From: an uncultured Flavobacteriales bacterium
Lineage (GTDB): Bacteria; Bacteroidota; Bacteroidia; Flavobacteriales_D; CAJJDF01
NCBI GenBank assembly: GCA_937129365.1
Contig: CAKZNB010000005.1
Coordinates: forward strand, 1,021 to 65,020
Direction of reading: 5' to 3'
DNA length: 64,000 bases
Shown: piece by piece, positions 35,455 to 40,223 of the stretch
Numbering within the stretch: position 1 is the stretch's first letter
Layout of the letters: the number at the start of each line of letters is the position of its first letter
Made by a program: the position numbers and the translations under genes
Notes under the pieces: model-generated
Told to the model about the DNA's origin: nothing
What the model saw: the letters and a program-made list of their open reading frames with translations, nothing else
Database searches by the model: none

Positions 35455-35496
35455 TAAAAAAGCTTGCTTAACTCTCTCTAAAAAGCTTTTTTTTTC

Positions 35497-35527
35497 AAGC
35501 TCCACAGCAATGTGGGGCTTGTTTTTT
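35497..35527 (+). terminator. Rho-independent terminator
   Basis: Stem aagctccaca/tgtggggctt with loop gcaa, followed by gTTTTTT. Confidence 0.75.
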
Positions 35528-35545
35528 ACATACTAACTTATAGTA

Positions 35546-36970
35546 TTATTGATTTAAAACTCCCAGAGAATATTTCATTTTTACTTCAGCCTTTCTATTA
35601 TTTGCTAGACTATTTACATATTCTATTTGAGAATAAATATAGTTTTTCTCTCTTGAATTAATCATAAAAATCGAGCTTTCCCCAATATTAAATAGCCTAA
35701 TTTCTGCATCGAGCAATTTTTCATAATTGTTTTGAGTAGAATTATAAAGTAAAGCTTGATTATAAGAAGTATTCCAAAAATTATATGAACTTGTTACTTT
35801 ATACTTTATAAATTGAGATTTATCTGCAAAGCCTGCTTCCATATCTCTTATTTCAAGTTTCGATAATTTTAGCTCTCCCCTTTCTTTTCGGATAAAAATA
35901 GGAAAACTAAATTCTGCTCCCCATTTATAATTGTTTACATTATAAGTGTCAAAAGTATTCTCGAAAGTATTTTCGGCCAACGCATTGTATTTCAATTCAA
36001 TAGTTGGTTTTAGATTTTCTCTGTTTAATCTTAAATCAATCCTTTCAATATCAATCATATAGGCATACTTAACCAATTCTGGGTGTGTTGCAATTAATGA
36101 ATCTGATTGAGAGAAGAGTTGAGAGCTTGCGGCTTTTATAAGCGAAGTATCCAAATCATGAGGCACAACCGTTGAATCAATTTCAAGAGGAATTATTCCT
36201 TCTTGCCATAGATAAATCTCAAGTAAATTGGTATTATTTCTATATTCAAGTAAAGCCTCTTGTAATCCAATTTCTCTGTTCTGAAAAACTATTAGAGATT
36301 CCAACGTATCAATATAGGGCTTATTTCCTAGCATTGCCTCTCTTTTTATTCCAAGAAATCTTGTTTGAGCATTTGATACTGCATTTTGATAAATAGCTAC
36401 TTTATGATAGGATTTGAACCATTCCCAATAAATAATTGATGATTTATATAGCAAATCATTTAGCATTACTTTTTGTTGAGCTTCGGTGCTATTTGCATAA
36501 ATTTTAGCTTTTTTTAGCTCCGCTCTTCGTTCATCAATAAATAGCCCTTTACCAAGATTAACTGAAACTCCTGCATTCCATAGTCCATTAAGTGGGTTTT
36601 TGTTTTCAGGATTTAAAAAAATCCCTTCATTAGTTTGATAACCAGCATCTACAGTAATTCCAAACCATGTAGGGACTTTTACCCCTCCATTAATTAAACT
36701 GTAATATTGTTTATCATCAAAGTACTTTTGTCCAGCAGTACCATATAGTTTTGGATCAAATCCTCCTCTAGACTTCATTATATAAGCTTGCCCCTTTTCA
36801 ATTTGCAAATTGGCTTGTATGGCAACTGGGTGATTACTTTTAATTAAATTAGTGTATTCCTCAAAAGTAAATATTACCTTGTTTTTTTGACCAAAAGATT
36901 GACCAATGAATAACATTAAAAAAACCGCAAAAAACAATGCTTTTCTGTATGTAATAGAGATAATTGTCAT
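35546..36970 (-). CDS. TolC-family outer-membrane channel
   Basis: Signal peptide and the size and two-repeat organisation of OEP-family proteins. It overlaps the upstream HlyD-like gene by 4 nt. Confidence 0.75.
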   Translation of the reverse strand: MTIISITYRKALFFAVFLMLFIGQSFGQKNKVIFTFEEYTNLIKSNHPVAIQANLQIEKGQAYIMKSRGGFDPKLYGTAGQKYFDDKQYYSLINGGVKVPTWFGITVDAGYQTNEGIFLNPENKNPLNGLWNAGVSVNLGKGLFIDERRAELKKAKIYANSTEAQQKVMLNDLLYKSSIIYWEWFKSYHKVAIYQNAVSNAQTRFLGIKREAMLGNKPYIDTLESLIVFQNREIGLQEALLEYRNNTNLLEIYLWQEGIIPLEIDSTVVPHDLDTSLIKAASSQLFSQSDSLIATHPELVKYAYMIDIERIDLRLNRENLKPTIELKYNALAENTFENTFDTYNVNNYKWGAEFSFPIFIRKERGELKLSKLEIRDMEAGFADKSQFIKYKVTSSYNFWNTSYNQALLYNSTQNNYEKLLDAEIRLFNIGESSIFMINSREKNYIYSQIEYVNSLANNRKAEVKMKYSLGVLNQ

Positions 36971-38316
36971 TTTTTAATTCCCTTAAGAGATTTTTGATTT
37001 TTGTAAAAATCTGGTGGAAATCCATTAATATTTCGCCATAATTCATACCAAATTGGCACATCATTGAGTAAAATCATATTGTTTGTACCTCCTCCAAACA
37101 TCAATGCATCAGGCCATTCATGATCTGTAGTATCTGGTTTTACAAGTACTCTGTATTTTCCGTTATCACCTAAAAACATATCCATTGCATATACAGTCCC
37201 GCCATAAGTTCCATAACTGGTATTTGGCCAGCCCGCAAAAACAACTGCAGGCCATCCATCAAATTGAATTCTAACTTCTTGTCCAATTTTTAAAAGAGGT
37301 AAATCAATAGGATCTACAAATAATTCAACAGCCAGCTGGTATTGAGTGGGCATTATTCTTACTAAAGGAGCTCCTTCCTTAATAGTTTCACCTATTCCAG
37401 TATATATCAAACTTGAAATGTAACCATTTTGCGGTGCCAAAATATAATATAAACTATTCCTTTTAGAGTAGTTAGATAACTCATTCATCATTTTTGTAAC
37501 AGTTCCTTCAGAATCAAATTGAGTTGATAGAGTAGAAAAAATTTCGGAATTGACCTTCGCAATATCTGAATCAAATTTTACCTTGATATTTGATAATTCA
37601 ACCTGTGTATTGATTATTTCATTTTGGCTAGTTAACCATTTATTCTGGGTCTCTATTCTGTAAGCTAAAGCTTTTTGTTCTTTTACTCTCCTGTTTTCCA
37701 AATCAGTAAGCGATTTCAAACCTTCTTGATACAAACTATCCATTCTATTAAATTGACTACTTGCAGCTTGATAGTTAGCTATTGCAGCCTGATAATTATT
37801 AGAATCATTTTGTGCCTTTAGCCTAGCTTGCATTAATTTGTTTTTCCCTTGTTGAATTTTTAGTTTTCTCAATTCTTCAAGTGCTCTTTTTTGACCATTT
37901 AACGCTAGCACTTTACTTTTATAAGAGTCTACAGACGAATTCTTTAGATCCATTTGGCTTTGAGTCCTAGAAAGTAGACTAGTATCAAAGAATTTATCTT
38001 TTACTTCAGATAAAAAAGCAATTGTATCTCCTTTTTTCACAAAATCTCCTTCTTGCACATACCATTTTTCTATCCTTCCAGGAATTACTGAATTTATAGT
38101 CTGAGGTCTTTGATCTGGCTTTAAAGTTGTTACACTACCGTTTGTACGAATATTTTGAGTCCAAGGTAGAAATAATAGAATTACTGAAACAATAGAAATA
38201 ATAAACAAAAAACGAATAAATGTTTTTCGAGAACTCTTACTTTCAACTTTCTTTAGAGTCATAAAATTATTTTCATCAACCCTTGATATTATGCTATTTT
38301 TTGAAATATTTAACAT
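36967..38316 (-). CDS. HlyD-family membrane-fusion (periplasmic adaptor) protein
   Basis: A single N-terminal TM helix, a lipoyl-like motif (GRIEKWYVQEGDFVKKGDTIAFL), a long coiled-coil and a beta-barrel C-terminus. Confidence 0.8.
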   Translation of the reverse strand: MLNISKNSIISRVDENNFMTLKKVESKSSRKTFIRFLFIISIVSVILLFLPWTQNIRTNGSVTTLKPDQRPQTINSVIPGRIEKWYVQEGDFVKKGDTIAFLSEVKDKFFDTSLLSRTQSQMDLKNSSVDSYKSKVLALNGQKRALEELRKLKIQQGKNKLMQARLKAQNDSNNYQAAIANYQAASSQFNRMDSLYQEGLKSLTDLENRRVKEQKALAYRIETQNKWLTSQNEIINTQVELSNIKVKFDSDIAKVNSEIFSTLSTQFDSEGTVTKMMNELSNYSKRNSLYYILAPQNGYISSLIYTGIGETIKEGAPLVRIMPTQYQLAVELFVDPIDLPLLKIGQEVRIQFDGWPAVVFAGWPNTSYGTYGGTVYAMDMFLGDNGKYRVLVKPDTTDHEWPDALMFGGGTNNMILLNDVPIWYELWRNINGFPPDFYKNQKSLKGIKK

Positions 38317-38326
38317 GCTCTATAGT

Positions 38327-40036
38327 TTATAATAAATCTTTTATCGTATTATAACTCCCTATCCCTGAAATAGTTCCTTCTTTAATTACTATAATTTTAT
38401 CCATTTTTTCAGCTAAAGCAGAATTTGAGGAAGCTAAAACCAAAGTCCAACATCTATCCTTATGAGTTAAAAAATTTAAAATTCTATTTCTTTCTTCTGG
38501 GGAAATCGCCCCAAAAGCATCTTTAATTAATAATAACTTAGGTTTGTCAGCTATACTCCTTGCTAAAAGTATTTTATCAATAATTCCTTTCGAAAATTTT
38601 TGTCCTCTTGAGTCTATTAAAGTATCATAACCAAGAGGTAATTTTTTTATTTGCTCTTCTAATCCAATATTTTTTACAGCCCATTTAATATTTTCAAAAG
38701 TGGCATTCTCTCTACCCATTTTAATATTATCATATATGGTTCCATCAAACAATAATTCCTCTCTTAAACAATCTCCTATTACATTTCTTAATGTACTTAA
38801 TTTTAAATTTCCTTGAGGTAAATCATTGTAAGTAATATAACCACTTGAAGGAGCATAAAGAGCTGATATCAAGTATAATAAAGTGGACTTTCCTGAGTCA
38901 TTATCTCCAATTAATAATACTTTCTCATTGGGGTTAAGTGAGAAACTTATATCCTTAATAACAGGTTCAGTTTCATCTGTATAACTAAAATTCACTTTAC
39001 TCAACTCAATTTTTAATCCTCCTTCTTCAAGATTCTCAAGAATACAGAGTCCTTCACTTTTTTCAAGTTCTAAATCAGTTACTTGGCCTATTTTTTCAAG
39101 AGAAGTAAGAACATCATATATAGTTTCAAGACTTACGATAAGTTTTTCTACTGAACTTAAAACCAATAAAATAATAATCTCAGCGGCAACAAATTGACCT
39201 ATATTCATTTGCTGTTCCATTACCAATAGACTTCCTATTATTAATAATCCCGCAGCAACTATAGCTTTAAATACAACCAAAAGTGAATACTGTTTTAGCA
39301 GTATTTTAAAATGATTCTCTCTAGCATCAATGTACTTTTCGGTTCTTTCATCAGTAATTTCAAGAGGCAGTGAAGTTTTTCCAGCAAGTTTAAAACTAAT
39401 GTTTGTTCTTGCCATTTCTTGTAACCAATGAGCAACATTGTATTTATTTTTAGACTCTATAAGACTAGTTTGTAGACCAATTTTTGCAGTATATTGAAAA
39501 ATAGCCCAAACTAAGATTACCAAAATCAAACTAAAAATGATAAAGAAAGGATGGTAAAGAGAAAGAAGAATTAACCCAAAAATTACTTGAATAGAGGCGG
39601 AAGAAAAATCGATAAGTATTTTAGATATTCCTTTTTGAACAGAAATAATATCAAAAAATCTATTCATTAACTCTGGAGCATAGTGCTTATATAGTGCAGA
39701 CATCTTTATGTTTGGAATTCTAAATGCAAACTCAAATGCAGCACGAGTAAATAATCTCTGTTGCAAAATTTCAGTAATTTTGAGTTGGCTTATCTGTAAA
39801 ATACCTGAAAATACAATCCCCAAAATTACAAAGGTAACGAGTACAATCCAGGCTGTACTTACTTCTCCACCTTGAATTAGGTTTATAATTGCCTGAATAC
39901 CAATTGGTAAAGAAAGATTTACTAAACCATTAAAAATTGCATATAAATAAACATAGCGTATCTCTTTTTTATCCCTACTCAAAAGTTTCCAAAATCTTTT
40001 GACTGGAGTCAAACTATTTTCCATTGTTTTTGTCAT
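38327..40036 (-). CDS. ABC exporter half-transporter (TMD-NBD) with a degenerate nucleotide-binding domain
   Basis: An N-terminal six-helix exporter TMD. In the NBD, Walker A is GDNDSGKST. The other motifs are non-consensus: Q-loop position R, signature FSKGI, Walker B region LLLIKDA, and H-loop position S (LASSN). Confidence 0.8.
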   Translation of the reverse strand: MTKTMENSLTPVKRFWKLLSRDKKEIRYVYLYAIFNGLVNLSLPIGIQAIINLIQGGEVSTAWIVLVTFVILGIVFSGILQISQLKITEILQQRLFTRAAFEFAFRIPNIKMSALYKHYAPELMNRFFDIISVQKGISKILIDFSSASIQVIFGLILLSLYHPFFIIFSLILVILVWAIFQYTAKIGLQTSLIESKNKYNVAHWLQEMARTNISFKLAGKTSLPLEITDERTEKYIDARENHFKILLKQYSLLVVFKAIVAAGLLIIGSLLVMEQQMNIGQFVAAEIIILLVLSSVEKLIVSLETIYDVLTSLEKIGQVTDLELEKSEGLCILENLEEGGLKIELSKVNFSYTDETEPVIKDISFSLNPNEKVLLIGDNDSGKSTLLYLISALYAPSSGYITYNDLPQGNLKLSTLRNVIGDCLREELLFDGTIYDNIKMGRENATFENIKWAVKNIGLEEQIKKLPLGYDTLIDSRGQKFSKGIIDKILLARSIADKPKLLLIKDAFGAISPEERNRILNFLTHKDRCWTLVLASSNSALAEKMDKIIVIKEGTISGIGSYNTIKDLL

Positions 40037-40167
40037 ATTTTCTGACCTTAAAATACTGTAATGATATTATTGCTCTGCAAAATAATAGTATTACTATCAA
40101 TTTTGCAAGTAATTTAAGTTTTTTATTTTAAAATAATAATCTTATAATTTAGGAATAAATAAAAATT

Positions 40168-40186
40168 ATCAATCAATAATATTGAT
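40168..40186. promoter_or_regulatory. Candidate ArsR operator (inverted repeat ATCAAT-N7-ATTGAT)
   Basis: A perfect 6-bp inverted repeat with a 7-bp spacer lies ~40 bp upstream of the arsR ATG. It sits just upstream of a near-consensus -7 box (TAATATTG, 40204..40211). Confidence 0.4.
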
Positions 40187-40223
40187 TTAAAATTTATTAA
40201 TCGTAATATTGCAATATATAATT

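What the first reader, a model, noticed from the sequence alone, without database searches (positions are those of the whole stretch)
38327..40036. The ABC component of the ABC/HlyD/TolC exporter has a nucleotide-binding domain degenerate in almost every catalytic motif
I read the NBD against the canonical exporter pattern. Walker A is retained (GDNDSGKST). The Q-loop Gln position is Arg (IGDCLREELLF). The LSGGQ signature reads FSKGI. The Walker B/catalytic-Glu region reads LLLIKDA, so there is no Asp-Glu pair. The D-loop reads GAIS. The H-loop His position is Ser (LVLASSN). A half-transporter normally homodimerises, so both ATP sites would be crippled. No second ABC gene is present in the operon, which also encodes the HlyD-like and TolC-like proteins with 4-nt and 10-nt junctions. 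Three explanations are possible. The protein may pair with a partner encoded elsewhere. It may act as a non-hydrolytic scaffold or channel. Or the tripartite system may be energised differently. No obvious substrate gene (small peptide or RTX-type protein) is adjacent.
Basis: seen in the sequence. Interest (0 to 1): 0.6.

Follow-up and report, generated by a model that had tools for sequence, protein, structure and literature searches.

The report
Export pump with dead ATPase domain
This intact three-gene export pump looks like an ATP-driven ABC system, but its ATP-splitting residues are gone in this gene and in hundreds of Bacteroidota relatives, and some relatives have deleted the ATPase domain entirely, so the pump probably runs or is gated without ATP hydrolysis.

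Summary
The 569-aa protein (38327-40036, minus strand) has an ABC-exporter membrane domain and a nucleotide-binding domain (NBD). Walker A and the A-loop Tyr are kept. The other motifs are replaced: Q-loop Q to R, LSGGQ to FSKGI, Walker B D-E to K-D, no D-loop, and no H-loop His.

This is not decay. The same substitutions are fixed in 119 close homologues, and NBD dN/dS is about 0.05. The ABC-HlyD-OEP gene order held in all 80 related loci wherever the contig reached far enough. Only 1 of 80 has a second ABC gene nearby.

Conservation is inverted relative to a normal exporter: membrane domain 61% identity and NBD 37%, against 40% and 64% in a control.

A tree shows a gradient. Basal clades keep D-E and His. 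A crown clade of 153, which includes this gene, keeps neither. Pedobacter and Mucilaginibacter carry NBD-less 334-aa forms, still followed by HlyD and OEP.

A TetR regulator precedes the operon in 59 of 80 loci. Here it is unlinked.

The most likely reading is that the membrane domain does the transport without ATP hydrolysis, possibly driven by proton-motive force.

This scan has found the family before, on at least seven other genomes. I found no paper describing it.

The parts
38327..40036 (-). ABC-fold inner-membrane component, 569 aa: type IV exporter membrane domain plus a non-catalytic NBD
   Evidence: ORF. Pfam PF00664 and PF00005. AF2 model with pLDDT 89 and pTM 0.80, showing six long TM helices plus an NBD. 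Foldseek TM-scores of 0.87-0.89 to HlyB, PCAT1 and TmrAB.
39077..39979 (-). Transmembrane domain (residues 20-320), the most conserved part of the protein. It carries family-specific motifs: LSLPxGxQAIxNL in TM1, PELxNRFFD in TM3, YHPFF in the TM3-4 turn, ESKxKY in TM4 and GQFVAAE in TM6.
   Evidence: Mean identity to the query is 61% here, against 37% in the NBD. A canonical exporter control shows the reverse, 40% and 64%. Signature residues are kept in 160-191 of 191 family members and are absent from canonical outgroups.
39179..39181 (-). E286 codon: a carboxylate inside the hydrophobic stretch of TM6 (FVAA-E-IIILLVL). It is family-defining and a candidate proton or substrate site.
   Evidence: E in 189/191 family members, including the basal ATPase-competent and the NBD-less forms. 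Canonical outgroups have I/I/V here. The helix spans residues 279-320 in the AF2 model. Membrane depth is inferred from sequence, not from coordinates.
38330..39010 (-). Nucleotide-binding domain (residues 343-569). The fold is kept and the catalytic motifs are replaced.
   Evidence: PF00005 at 67 bits. phmmer alignments to P-gp. dN/dS about 0.045 against the 93% orthologue.
38882..38908 (-). Walker A, GDNDSGKST (residues 377-385). It is retained, but Asp replaces the fourth-position Gly.
   Evidence: G377, G382 and K383 are kept in 118-119 of 119 homologues. D/N at position 380 goes with K at 505.
38762..38764 (-). R425 at the Q-loop Gln position
   Evidence: Alignment. The column is M/R/S and never Q in 119 homologues.
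38582..38596 (-). FSKGI in place of the LSGGQ signature (residues 481-485)
   Evidence: None of the 145 aligned of the 150 best cluster representatives has LSGGQ.
38519..38536 (-). LLLIKD in place of Walker B hhhhDE (residues 501-506): Asp to Lys505 and catalytic Glu to Asp506
   Evidence: K505 in 112/119 and D506 in 117/119.
38423..38434 (-). H-loop region A-S-S-N (residues 535-538), with no His
36967..38316 (-). HlyD-type periplasmic adaptor, 449 aa, starting 10 nt after the ABC stop
   Evidence: Pfam HlyD_3, HlyD_D23 and Biotin_lipoyl_2. Best NCBIfam match is type_I_hlyD, below its cut-off. Found directly downstream of the ABC gene in 79 of 80 related loci.
35546..36970 (-). TolC-like outer-membrane factor, 474 aa, overlapping the HlyD stop by 4 nt
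   Evidence: Pfam OEP, two stretches, 114 bits. Third gene wherever the contig reaches, in 74 of 80 loci.
35485..35520 (.). Terminator-like hairpin (AAGCCCCACA...TGTGGAGCTT) with A and T runs, lying between the OEP stop and the convergent T9SS-sorted gene
   Evidence: Read from the sequence. Not tested.
40037..40208 (-). 172-nt AT-rich control region shared with the divergent arsR gene. It holds a weak Bacteroidota-type promoter candidate: TTG at 40106-40108 and TAttTTG at 40078-40084.
   Evidence: Read from the sequence. This is inference only. No TetR gene is present here, unlike in 59 of 80 related loci.

Best explanation
The three genes form an intact tripartite envelope-spanning exporter: an ABC-fold inner-membrane protein, a HlyD-type adaptor and a TolC-type duct. 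It belongs to a large Bacteroidota family in which the ABC 'motor' no longer hydrolyses ATP.

Shown here:
- The catalytic residues are replaced, and the replacements are fixed by selection.
- The membrane domain is the most conserved part of the protein.
- The family runs from basal members that keep Walker B D-E and the H-loop His, through a crown clade with neither (this gene), to lineages that deleted the NBD and still keep the adaptor and duct genes.

Inferred:
- Transport is done by the membrane domain and is not paid for by ATP hydrolysis.
- The most likely energy source is the proton-motive force, acting through family-specific charged residues such as E286 in TM6 together with E297, E89, K135 and K198. 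SbmA and NBD-less LmrA are precedents.
- In this lineage the NBD survives as a constrained non-catalytic module. It could be a dimerisation or structural clamp, or a nucleotide sensor, still coupled to the membrane domain.
- The substrate is probably a small molecule, because a TetR regulator heads the operon in most genomes.
For: - Motif register and substitutions.
- Replacement residues fixed in 119 homologues.
- No LSGGQ, Q-loop Gln or H-loop His at the aligned positions in the 145 aligned of the 150 best 50%-cluster representatives. The Walker A Lys is kept in only 106/145, and a few have lost Walker A altogether.
- NBD under purifying selection (dN/dS 0.045, against 0.023 for the membrane domain).
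- Inverted conservation (membrane domain 61% and NBD 37%, against 40% and 64% in a canonical exporter of the same phylum).
- ABC-HlyD-OEP order held in the 80 loci wherever the contig reached far enough (HlyD in 79, OEP in 74), with a second ABC gene within 10 kb in 1 of 80.
- Tree on the membrane domain. Basal clades keep D-E plus His. The crown clade of 153 (support 0.99) mostly keeps neither, and it contains the query and the NBD-less forms.
- NBD-less 334-340-aa proteins end just after the VTDLELE linker, about 10 residues on, and overlap the HlyD start. No NBD-like sequence lies within 17 kb. pN is 0.19 against pS 0.77.
- NBD-less forms fill the top 120 clusters of a homologue search, across Pedobacter, Mucilaginibacter and a Chitinophaga. 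The Pedobacter gene context is the same.
- Family-wide membrane-domain residues (E286 in 189/191) are absent from canonical exporters.
- P121, R210 and Q249 are kept in most NBD-bearing members (167-179 of 191) but changed in both NBD-less ones. This fits an NBD contact surface that is still under selection here.
- TetR regulator upstream in 59 of 80 loci.
- Precedents for ABC-type membrane domains driven by protons: SbmA (PMC8442886, PMC13316013), proton coupling in MsbA (PMC4979069) and ion-motive force in LmrA (PMC6155054).
Against: - Nothing here measures ATPase activity, nucleotide binding, transport or expression.
- The conserved membrane-domain carboxylates are already present in the basal clade that keeps D-E and His. 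They are therefore not an adaptation that arose when the ATPase was lost, and they could serve substrate binding or adaptor docking instead of proton relay.
- Walker A and the A-loop Tyr are well kept in this clade, so a nucleotide-dependent step cannot be excluded.
- The membrane depth of E286 is inferred from sequence and secondary structure only.
- An orphan NBD or partner encoded far away cannot be ruled out by genome context alone.
Confidence: 0.55

Rival explanations
1. Nucleotide-gated passive conduit, a 'broken pump' in the manner of CFTR. The NBD still binds ATP through Walker A and the A-loop but does not hydrolyse it. Binding and release open or close a pathway through which a substrate made in the cell leaves down its own gradient via the HlyD-TolC duct.
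For: Walker A G377, G382 and K383 and the A-loop Y352 are nearly invariant in the close clade. The NBD is under purifying selection. Residues that look like NBD contacts are conserved only where an NBD exists. Degenerate sites of heterodimeric exporters are known to hold ATP for minutes without hydrolysis (PMC7756269).
Against: In the wider family the Walker A Lys is lost in about a quarter of representatives, and some have lost the whole P-loop. NBD-less forms persist across genera, so nucleotide binding cannot be essential to the family's core function. In this protein the P-loop carries Asp at the Gly4 position, and Lys replaces the Mg-coordinating Asp. Both changes may disfavour Mg-ATP.
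Confidence: 0.2
2. Heterodimer with a canonical ABC half-transporter encoded elsewhere in the genome, which supplies the ATPase activity.
For: The genome encodes four other type IV exporters. Heterodimeric exporters with one degenerate site are common (PMC7756269).
Against: This protein is degenerate on both faces, the Walker B/H-loop side and the signature side, so both composite sites of any heterodimer would be impaired. Only 1 of 80 related loci has a second ABC gene within 10 kb. Two of the genome's other exporters (L002 and L003) look like partners for each other: LSTGQ in one and a D-D Walker B in the other. NBD-less relatives keep only the adaptor and duct genes.
Confidence: 0.07
3. 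Residual, non-canonical ATP hydrolysis using substitute residues, for example D506 as a weak general base or K483/K505 as phosphate ligands. On this reading the system is still a slow primary pump.
For: Exporters with Asp at the catalytic Glu position keep low activity at degenerate sites (established knowledge; PMC7756269). K483 and K505 are conserved in the close clade.
Against: The Mg-coordinating Walker B Asp, the H-loop His, the Q-loop Gln and the signature Gly-Gly-Gln are all missing together. The replacement residues differ between subclades (K-D here; E-D, D-D, N-D and others elsewhere), which argues against a shared alternative catalytic solution. NBD-less forms exist.
Confidence: 0.08
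4. The protein is not itself a transporter. It anchors or assembles the HlyD-TolC duct as an inner-membrane scaffold for another process or another transporter.
For: There is no recognisable energy-coupling site. The strongest conservation includes periplasm-facing motifs (TM1 LSLPxGxQ, the TM3-4 YHPFF turn, TM6 GQF), which could be adaptor-docking surfaces.
Against: The whole six-helix exporter fold, including the cytoplasmic helical extensions and the coupling-helix regions, is conserved much more strongly than in real exporters. That is more than an anchor would need. TetR control is typical of efflux pumps.
Confidence: 0.07
5. Strain-specific decaying gene or pseudogene.
For: None beyond the loss of the motifs.
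Against: The frame is intact. dN/dS is 0.02-0.05. The same substitutions occur in 119 homologues. The operon is conserved in the 80 species-level loci wherever the contig reached far enough.
Confidence: 0.01

Closest known systems
Type I secretion and peptide-export ABC proteins with HlyD and TolC: HlyB (PDB 8dck, 7sgr), PrtD (5l22), PCAT1 (4ry2, 8vow), LssB and NHLP-type exporters (TIGR03375, TIGR03796/7)
   Same: The operon has the same make-up: ABC, HlyD-type adaptor and outer-membrane factor. The fold is the same half-transporter, with TM-scores of 0.87-0.89 to ATP-bound HlyB and PCAT1. These families are also the best NCBIfam matches.
   Different: All scores fall far below the family cut-offs, for example 190 bits against 853. 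This protein has no C39 or C39-like domain. No cargo gene is adjacent. The Q-loop Gln, signature, Walker B D-E and H-loop His are all missing. Most relatives are under TetR control. The membrane domain carries its own invariant motifs.
SbmA/BacA (SLiPT) proton-driven peptide transporters (PMC8442886, PMC13316013)
   Same: These are ABC-exporter-like membrane domains that work without ATP, and their conserved glutamates are proposed to relay protons. The NBD-less 334-aa relatives of this gene are a comparable membrane-domain-only state.
   Different: There is no sequence membership: Pfam finds ABC_membrane, not the SbmA_BacA family. SbmA is an importer, lacks coupling helices and is not part of a tripartite system. 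The protein here keeps an NBD and coupling-helix regions. Proton drive is untested here.
Heterodimeric type IV exporters with one degenerate ATP site: TM287/288 (PDB 3qf4, 6quz), TmrAB, TAP1/2, CFTR (PMC7756269)
   Same: The same kinds of substitution occur: catalytic Glu to Asp, loss of the H-loop His and an altered signature. Walker A is retained. TM287 is the top Foldseek hit.
   Different: Those proteins keep one fully competent site, supplied by a partner chain encoded next door. Here a single chain is degenerate on both faces, and no partner gene is present.
LmrA and MsbA ion-motive-force coupling, including NBD-less LmrA-MD (PMC6155054, PMC4979069; LmrA-MD as cited in PMC8442886)
   Same: This is experimental precedent that a type IV ABC membrane domain can use the proton gradient, even after its NBD has been removed.
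   Different: Those are engineered truncations or dual-coupled, fully catalytic pumps. Here the loss of the ATPase is natural, ancient and family-wide.

Membership tests
ABC transporter, type IV (type I exporter) half-transporter | Six-helix ABC_membrane domain fused to an ABC_tran NBD fold | tested here: met
   PF00664 (32 bits) and PF00005 (67 bits). AF2 model. Foldseek TM-scores up to 0.89.
ABC transporter, type IV (type I exporter) half-transporter | Walker A P-loop GxxGxGK[ST] | tested here: met
   GDNDSGKST. It fits GxxxxGK[ST], with Asp at the usual fourth-position Gly.
ABC transporter, type IV (type I exporter) half-transporter | LSGGQ signature (C-loop) | tested here: not met
   FSKGI aligned to MSGGQ/LSGGQ. 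Conserved as F-S-K-G-[IV].
ABC transporter, type IV (type I exporter) half-transporter | Walker B hhhhD followed by the catalytic Glu | tested here: not met
   LLLIK505-D506.
ABC transporter, type IV (type I exporter) half-transporter | Q-loop Gln and H-loop His | tested here: not met
   R425. No His in A-S-S-N 535-538.
ABC transporter, type IV (type I exporter) half-transporter | ATP hydrolysis drives transport | not testable with these tools
   Needs an ATPase and transport assay. The sequence argues against it.
Type I secretion system (HlyB/PrtD/LssB type) | ABC, HlyD-type adaptor and TolC-type OMF genes together | tested here: met
Type I secretion system (HlyB/PrtD/LssB type) | Score above the curated family cut-offs (TIGR01846, TIGR01842, TIGR03375) | tested here: not met
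   147, 138 and 187 bits against cut-offs of 726, 510 and 693.
Type I secretion system (HlyB/PrtD/LssB type) | Cognate secreted substrate (RTX or other C-terminal-signal protein) encoded nearby | tested here: not met
   No such gene in the window around the operon. No gene other than TetR recurs in more than 8 of the 80 loci.
Peptidase-containing ABC transporter (PCAT, bacteriocin exporter) | N-terminal C39 peptidase domain and a double-glycine-leader peptide gene | tested here: not met
   The protein starts about 20 residues before TM1 and has no C39 hit. The longer relatives carry an N-terminal domain of about 160 aa with no Pfam hit. TIGR01193 scores 150 bits against a cut-off of 524.
SbmA/BacA (SLiPT) secondary transporters | Sequence membership in SbmA_BacA, with no NBD and no coupling helices | tested here: not met
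   Only ABC_membrane is found, even for the NBD-less relative. This protein has an NBD and short helices at residues 112-115 and 212-218.
SbmA/BacA (SLiPT) secondary transporters | Transport driven by the proton gradient | not testable with these tools
   Needs proteoliposome or whole-cell assays with protonophores.
Heterodimeric ABC exporter with one degenerate site | Two different ABC chains encoded together, leaving one consensus ATP site | tested here: not met
   A single ABC gene in the operon. A second ABC gene within 10 kb in 1 of 80 loci. Both faces of this NBD are degenerate.
MacAB-TolC type tripartite ABC pump | MacB/FtsX-type (type VII) membrane domain with a periplasmic domain | tested here: not met
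   The fold is type IV. There is no FtsX or MacB_PCD hit.

The most novel reading that the evidence does not exclude
The membrane domain of this family is a proton-motive-force-driven efflux engine. That would add an energisation class of tripartite-pump inner-membrane component beside ATP-driven ABC, RND and MFS. It arose when an ancestral, perhaps dual-coupled, T1SS/PCAT-like ABC exporter lost ATP hydrolysis. The family preserves every stage of that transition in living genomes: an NBD that keeps the catalytic residues D-E and His, a dead but retained NBD, and a deleted NBD.
Probability: 0.35. Interest if true: 0.85.

Novelty: new variant of a known kind. Interest (0 to 1): 0.68.

Why it matters
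ABC exporters are defined by ATP hydrolysis, and how chemical energy couples to alternating access is still debated. Proton coupling in LmrA and MsbA, and the proton-driven SbmA, are the main hints that the membrane domain can use another energy source.

This family is a natural experiment on that question. It comprises hundreds of species in which a T1SS-like exporter keeps a highly conserved membrane domain, its adaptor and its outer-membrane duct, while the ATPase is first crippled and then deleted. Showing what powers it would say whether a type IV ABC membrane domain can act as a secondary or passive transporter inside a tripartite machine. It would also identify what the retained dead NBD is for.

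There is a practical point too. Genome annotation currently names these genes 'ABC transporter ATP-binding protein' or 'bacteriocin exporter with peptidase domain', which is probably misleading for environmental and marine Bacteroidota.

Tried and rejected
- **Mis-registration of motifs.** Rejected by the residue-level phmmer alignments to P-gp.
- **Decay.** Rejected.
- **Partner ABC in the operon or genome.** There is none in the operon. The four other exporters in this genome are ordinary and lie on other contigs.
- **Curated family names.** No NCBIfam model reaches its cut-off for this protein, for basal relatives or for NBD-less relatives.
- **Conserved cargo or accessory genes.** Clustering about 2,000 neighbouring ORFs from 80 loci gave only the TetR regulator (59 loci). 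SulP and carbonic anhydrase recur in 5-8 loci. Everything else is local synteny.
- **Literature.** Six full-text searches found no description of a doubly degenerate or NBD-less T1SS-like ABC family in Bacteroidota. Two reviews that I searched by keyword (PMC8277102, PMC7756269) showed no mention of one in the passages returned. The library is open-access only.
- **Mapping conserved residues onto the model.** Model coordinates are not exposed to the Python box, so membrane positions rest on sequence and DSSP only.
- **Homodimer or ATP-sandwich modelling.** Not possible, because the structure tool takes single chains only.
- **dN/dS beyond the closest pair.** Synonymous sites are saturated.
Full report
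**What is there.** Three co-directional genes lie on the minus strand:
- an ABC half-transporter, 38327-40036, 569 aa;
- a HlyD-type adaptor, 36967-38316, 449 aa, starting 10 nt after the ABC stop;
- a TolC-like outer-membrane factor, 35546-36970, 474 aa, overlapping the HlyD stop by 4 nt.

Pfam assigns ABC_membrane plus ABC_tran to the first, HlyD_3/HlyD_D23/Biotin_lipoyl_2 to the second and OEP to the third. Upstream there are only 172 AT-rich bases before a divergent arsR gene. Downstream there is a terminator-like hairpin before a convergent T9SS-sorted gene. The three genes therefore form the whole unit. No peptide or RTX-type gene is attached.

**Check of the observation.**
- Walker A is GDNDSGKST and is retained.
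- The A-loop Tyr352 is retained.
- R425 sits at the Q-loop Gln position.
- FSKGI replaces LSGGQ.
- LLLIK505-D506 replaces hhhhD-E.
- GAIS replaces SALD.
- The H-loop has no His.

PF00005 still matches, at 67 bits. An AlphaFold2 model built on 75 orthologues is confident (pLDDT 89, pTM 0.80). It shows the six long helices of a type IV exporter plus an NBD. Its best structural neighbours are ATP-bound HlyB, PCAT1, TmrAB and TM287/288, with TM-scores of 0.85-0.89. The fold is a complete ABC exporter, and the catalytic chemistry is missing.

**Decay or conserved state.** This is a conserved state.
- Among 119 homologues of at least 61% identity, the replacement residues are fixed. K505 occurs in 112, D506 in 117 and S536 in 111. 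F-S-K-G-[IV] is largely invariant. The Q-loop position is M/R/S and never Q. Walker A G377, G382 and K383 and Y352 are kept.
- Against the 93%-identical orthologue, dN/dS is 0.023 for the membrane domain and 0.045 for the NBD. Synonymous sites are near saturation, so these values are rough.
- In a search of 1.84 billion cluster representatives, 2,699 score below 1e-30. Of the best 150 (36-56% identity), the 145 full-length ones were aligned. None has LSGGQ, a Q-loop Gln or an H-loop His at the aligned positions. A looser scan later found a His nearby in about two dozen of them. The Walker A Lys is kept in only 106 of the 145, and several have lost the P-loop altogether.

**Distribution and context.**
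Of the best 80, nearly all are Bacteroidota: Flavobacteriales, Cytophagales, Chitinophagales and Saprospiraceae.
- In a phylum-wide sample, 68 of 301 genomes have a homologue at E below 1e-60.
- Among the 80 best loci, HlyD follows the ABC gene in 79. OEP follows in 74, which is every case where the contig reaches that far. Only one locus has another ABC-like gene within 10 kb.
- Clustering about 2,000 neighbouring ORFs gave one recurrent partner. It is a roughly 228-aa TetR-family regulator in 59 of 80 loci, and in 54 of these it lies on the same strand as the ABC gene, mostly just upstream of it.
- In this window that gene is absent. Its orthologue (57% identical to that of the 86% relative) lies on another contig, directly upstream of a SulP permease.
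- This genome has four other ABC exporters. Three have canonical catalytic motifs; L003 has D-D in place of Walker B D-E, and L002 has LSTGQ in place of LSGGQ. All lie on other contigs.

**Where the selection acts.** Ordinary ABC exporters conserve the NBD and let the membrane domain drift. I measured this with an MsbA-like exporter from the same genome and 20 orthologues from the same phylum, at matched overall divergence (44-52%). There the membrane domain is 40% identical and the NBD 64%. For the family studied here the figures are 61% and 37%, so the pattern is inverted.

The membrane domain carries invariant or near-invariant polar residues that canonical exporters lack: E89, E122, N125, R126, K135, S195, K198, H242, E286, E297, K298 and K315. 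E286 lies in the hydrophobic stretch FVAA-E-IIILLVL of TM6. It is Glu in 189 of 191 family members and I/I/V in the outgroups.

**An evolutionary gradient.** I built a tree on the membrane domain alone, with 191 family members plus three canonical outgroups.
- The basal clades are mostly 690-830-aa forms with an unassigned N-terminal domain. They keep Walker A Lys, Walker B D-E and an S-H-D H-loop, though their signatures are already odd (ISIGM, LPLGL, LSTGQ).
- An intermediate grade keeps the His, has D-D in Walker B, and has replaced the Walker A Lys with Q, R or E.
- A crown clade of 153 sequences (support 0.99) mostly has neither D-E nor His. The query lies in this clade.
- Also inside the crown are proteins of 334-340 aa that end about ten residues after the VTDLELE linker, with no NBD at all. 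Their stop overlaps the start of a HlyD gene, which an OEP gene follows. No NBD-like sequence lies within 17 kb. The two copies I fetched differ at pN 0.19 against pS 0.77.
- A homologue search with one of them returned 120 top clusters. All are 316-360 aa, nearly all 330-340, with identity from 94% down to 73%. They come from many Pedobacter and Mucilaginibacter species and one Chitinophaga. A Pedobacter chromosome shows the same context.

Losing the NBD is thus a stable, selected state across genera. I tested that claim here and it holds.

P121, R210 and Q249 are kept in most NBD-bearing members (167-179 of 191) but are changed in both NBD-less proteins examined. This is what one expects of NBD-contact positions. 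It suggests that where the NBD is retained, as here, it is still mechanically coupled to the membrane domain.

**Mechanism.**

What is shown:
- The catalytic set is absent.
- The state is under selection.
- The unit is ABC-HlyD-OEP without a partner ABC.
- The NBD can be deleted in relatives.

What I infer:
- Transport resides in the membrane domain and is not paid for by ATP hydrolysis.
- The most likely energy source is the proton-motive force. SbmA, a relative of ABC membrane domains, is proton-driven through a glutamate ladder (PMC8442886, PMC13316013). NBD-less LmrA can use the proton gradient (cited in PMC8442886). MsbA and LmrA are ion-coupled even when intact (PMC4979069, PMC6155054).
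- A coherent scenario is a dual-coupled ancestor that later dispensed with hydrolysis.

The main caveat is that the conserved carboxylates predate the loss of the ATPase. They may instead bind substrate or dock the adaptor.

The chief rival is a nucleotide-gated passive conduit, because Walker A and the A-loop are well kept in this clade. In this subclade the P-loop Gly4 is Asp or Asn exactly where Walker B Asp is Lys: 112 of 138, against G380 paired with D/E505 in 108 of 126. This could be a charge swap that fills the Mg-phosphate site. However, the association may be phylogenetic, and I could not inspect model coordinates.

TetR control in most genomes suggests a small-molecule substrate rather than a secreted protein.

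**Comparison with known systems.** By fold and operon the system is closest to T1SS/PCAT exporters (HlyB, PrtD, LssB, PCAT1, NHLP type). It fails their curated cut-offs by a wide margin. It also lacks a C39 or C39-like domain, any cargo gene, and four of the five catalytic motifs. It resembles the degenerate half of heterodimeric exporters such as TM287, but it has no competent partner. In its proposed working it resembles SbmA or LmrA-MD, but it is not a sequence member of SLiPT. I file it as a new variant of the tripartite ABC-type exporter.

**Prior work.** Six full-text searches and keyword searches within two reviews found no description of such a family. The library covers open-access literature only. 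Within this scan, the same family has been reported and followed up on at least seven other genomes, with the same general conclusion. This window is a further member, not a first sighting.

**Limits.**
- There is no biochemical, transport or expression evidence.
- Dimer modelling and residue mapping on coordinates were not possible.
- The organism is known only as a Flavobacteriales genome. Its closest named relatives are uncultured Flavobacteriales MAGs and Crocinitomicaceae.

Noticed in passing
G000:C48:4805-5467 (L107:1480-2169) and the gene after it (L107:2189-3661); also L029, L050 and L006: The TetR regulator that heads the ABC-HlyD-OEP operon in most genomes is unlinked here and sits directly upstream of a SulP-family permease. 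In several Crocinitomicaceae-like relatives the same TetR heads a SulP plus beta-carbonic-anhydrase operon beside the pump operon. The pump and a putative bicarbonate or anion transporter may share one regulator.
   Followed up: partly
L138:10893-15224 (-) and L165:824-5155 (+), Pedobacter: Next to the NBD-less pump operon lies a 1443-aa ORF that combines a full AcrB-type RND transporter (ACR_tran, residues 4-1033) with a C-terminal OEP repeat (residues 1262-1441). This is an apparent fusion of an inner-membrane pump with part of an outer-membrane factor, which is topologically odd.
   Followed up: no
Own genome: L002 (G000:C20:6709-7581 region) and L003 (G000:C49:90588-91448 region): Two canonical-looking exporters carry complementary single-site degeneracy: LSTGQ signature in one and a D-D Walker B in the other. 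This is the pattern of a TM287/288-type heterodimer, yet they lie on different contigs.
   Followed up: no
Residues D380 and K505 of the ABC protein (window 38897-38899 and 38522-38524): Across about 300 family members, Asp or Asn at the fourth Walker A position goes with Lys at the Walker B Asp position. This may be an internal charge pair occupying the Mg-phosphate site. It may also simply reflect shared ancestry.
   Followed up: partly
Representative proteins P0204, P0221, P0236, P0237, P0243, P0244 and P0267 (about 725-775 aa): An intermediate grade of the family keeps the H-loop His and has a D-D Walker B, but has replaced the Walker A Lys with Gln, Arg or Glu (GxxGxG[QRE][ST]T). This is a different route of NBD degeneration from the one in the query's clade.
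   Followed up: partly
L032 (labelled Akkermansia MAG) and L068 (labelled Halioglobus MAG): Two loci with 49-59% identical copies of this otherwise Bacteroidota-only operon sit in MAGs assigned to other phyla. This is probably contig mis-binning rather than horizontal transfer.
   Followed up: no
N-terminal 150-190 residues of the long (about 690-830 aa) relatives, e.g. L144:5461-7635 and L141:4294-6615: The long forms carry an N-terminal cytoplasmic domain with no Pfam hit. Only the LssB and HlyB NCBIfam models extend into it, which suggests a diverged, probably non-catalytic C39-like domain. The query's clade lacks it.
   Followed up: partly
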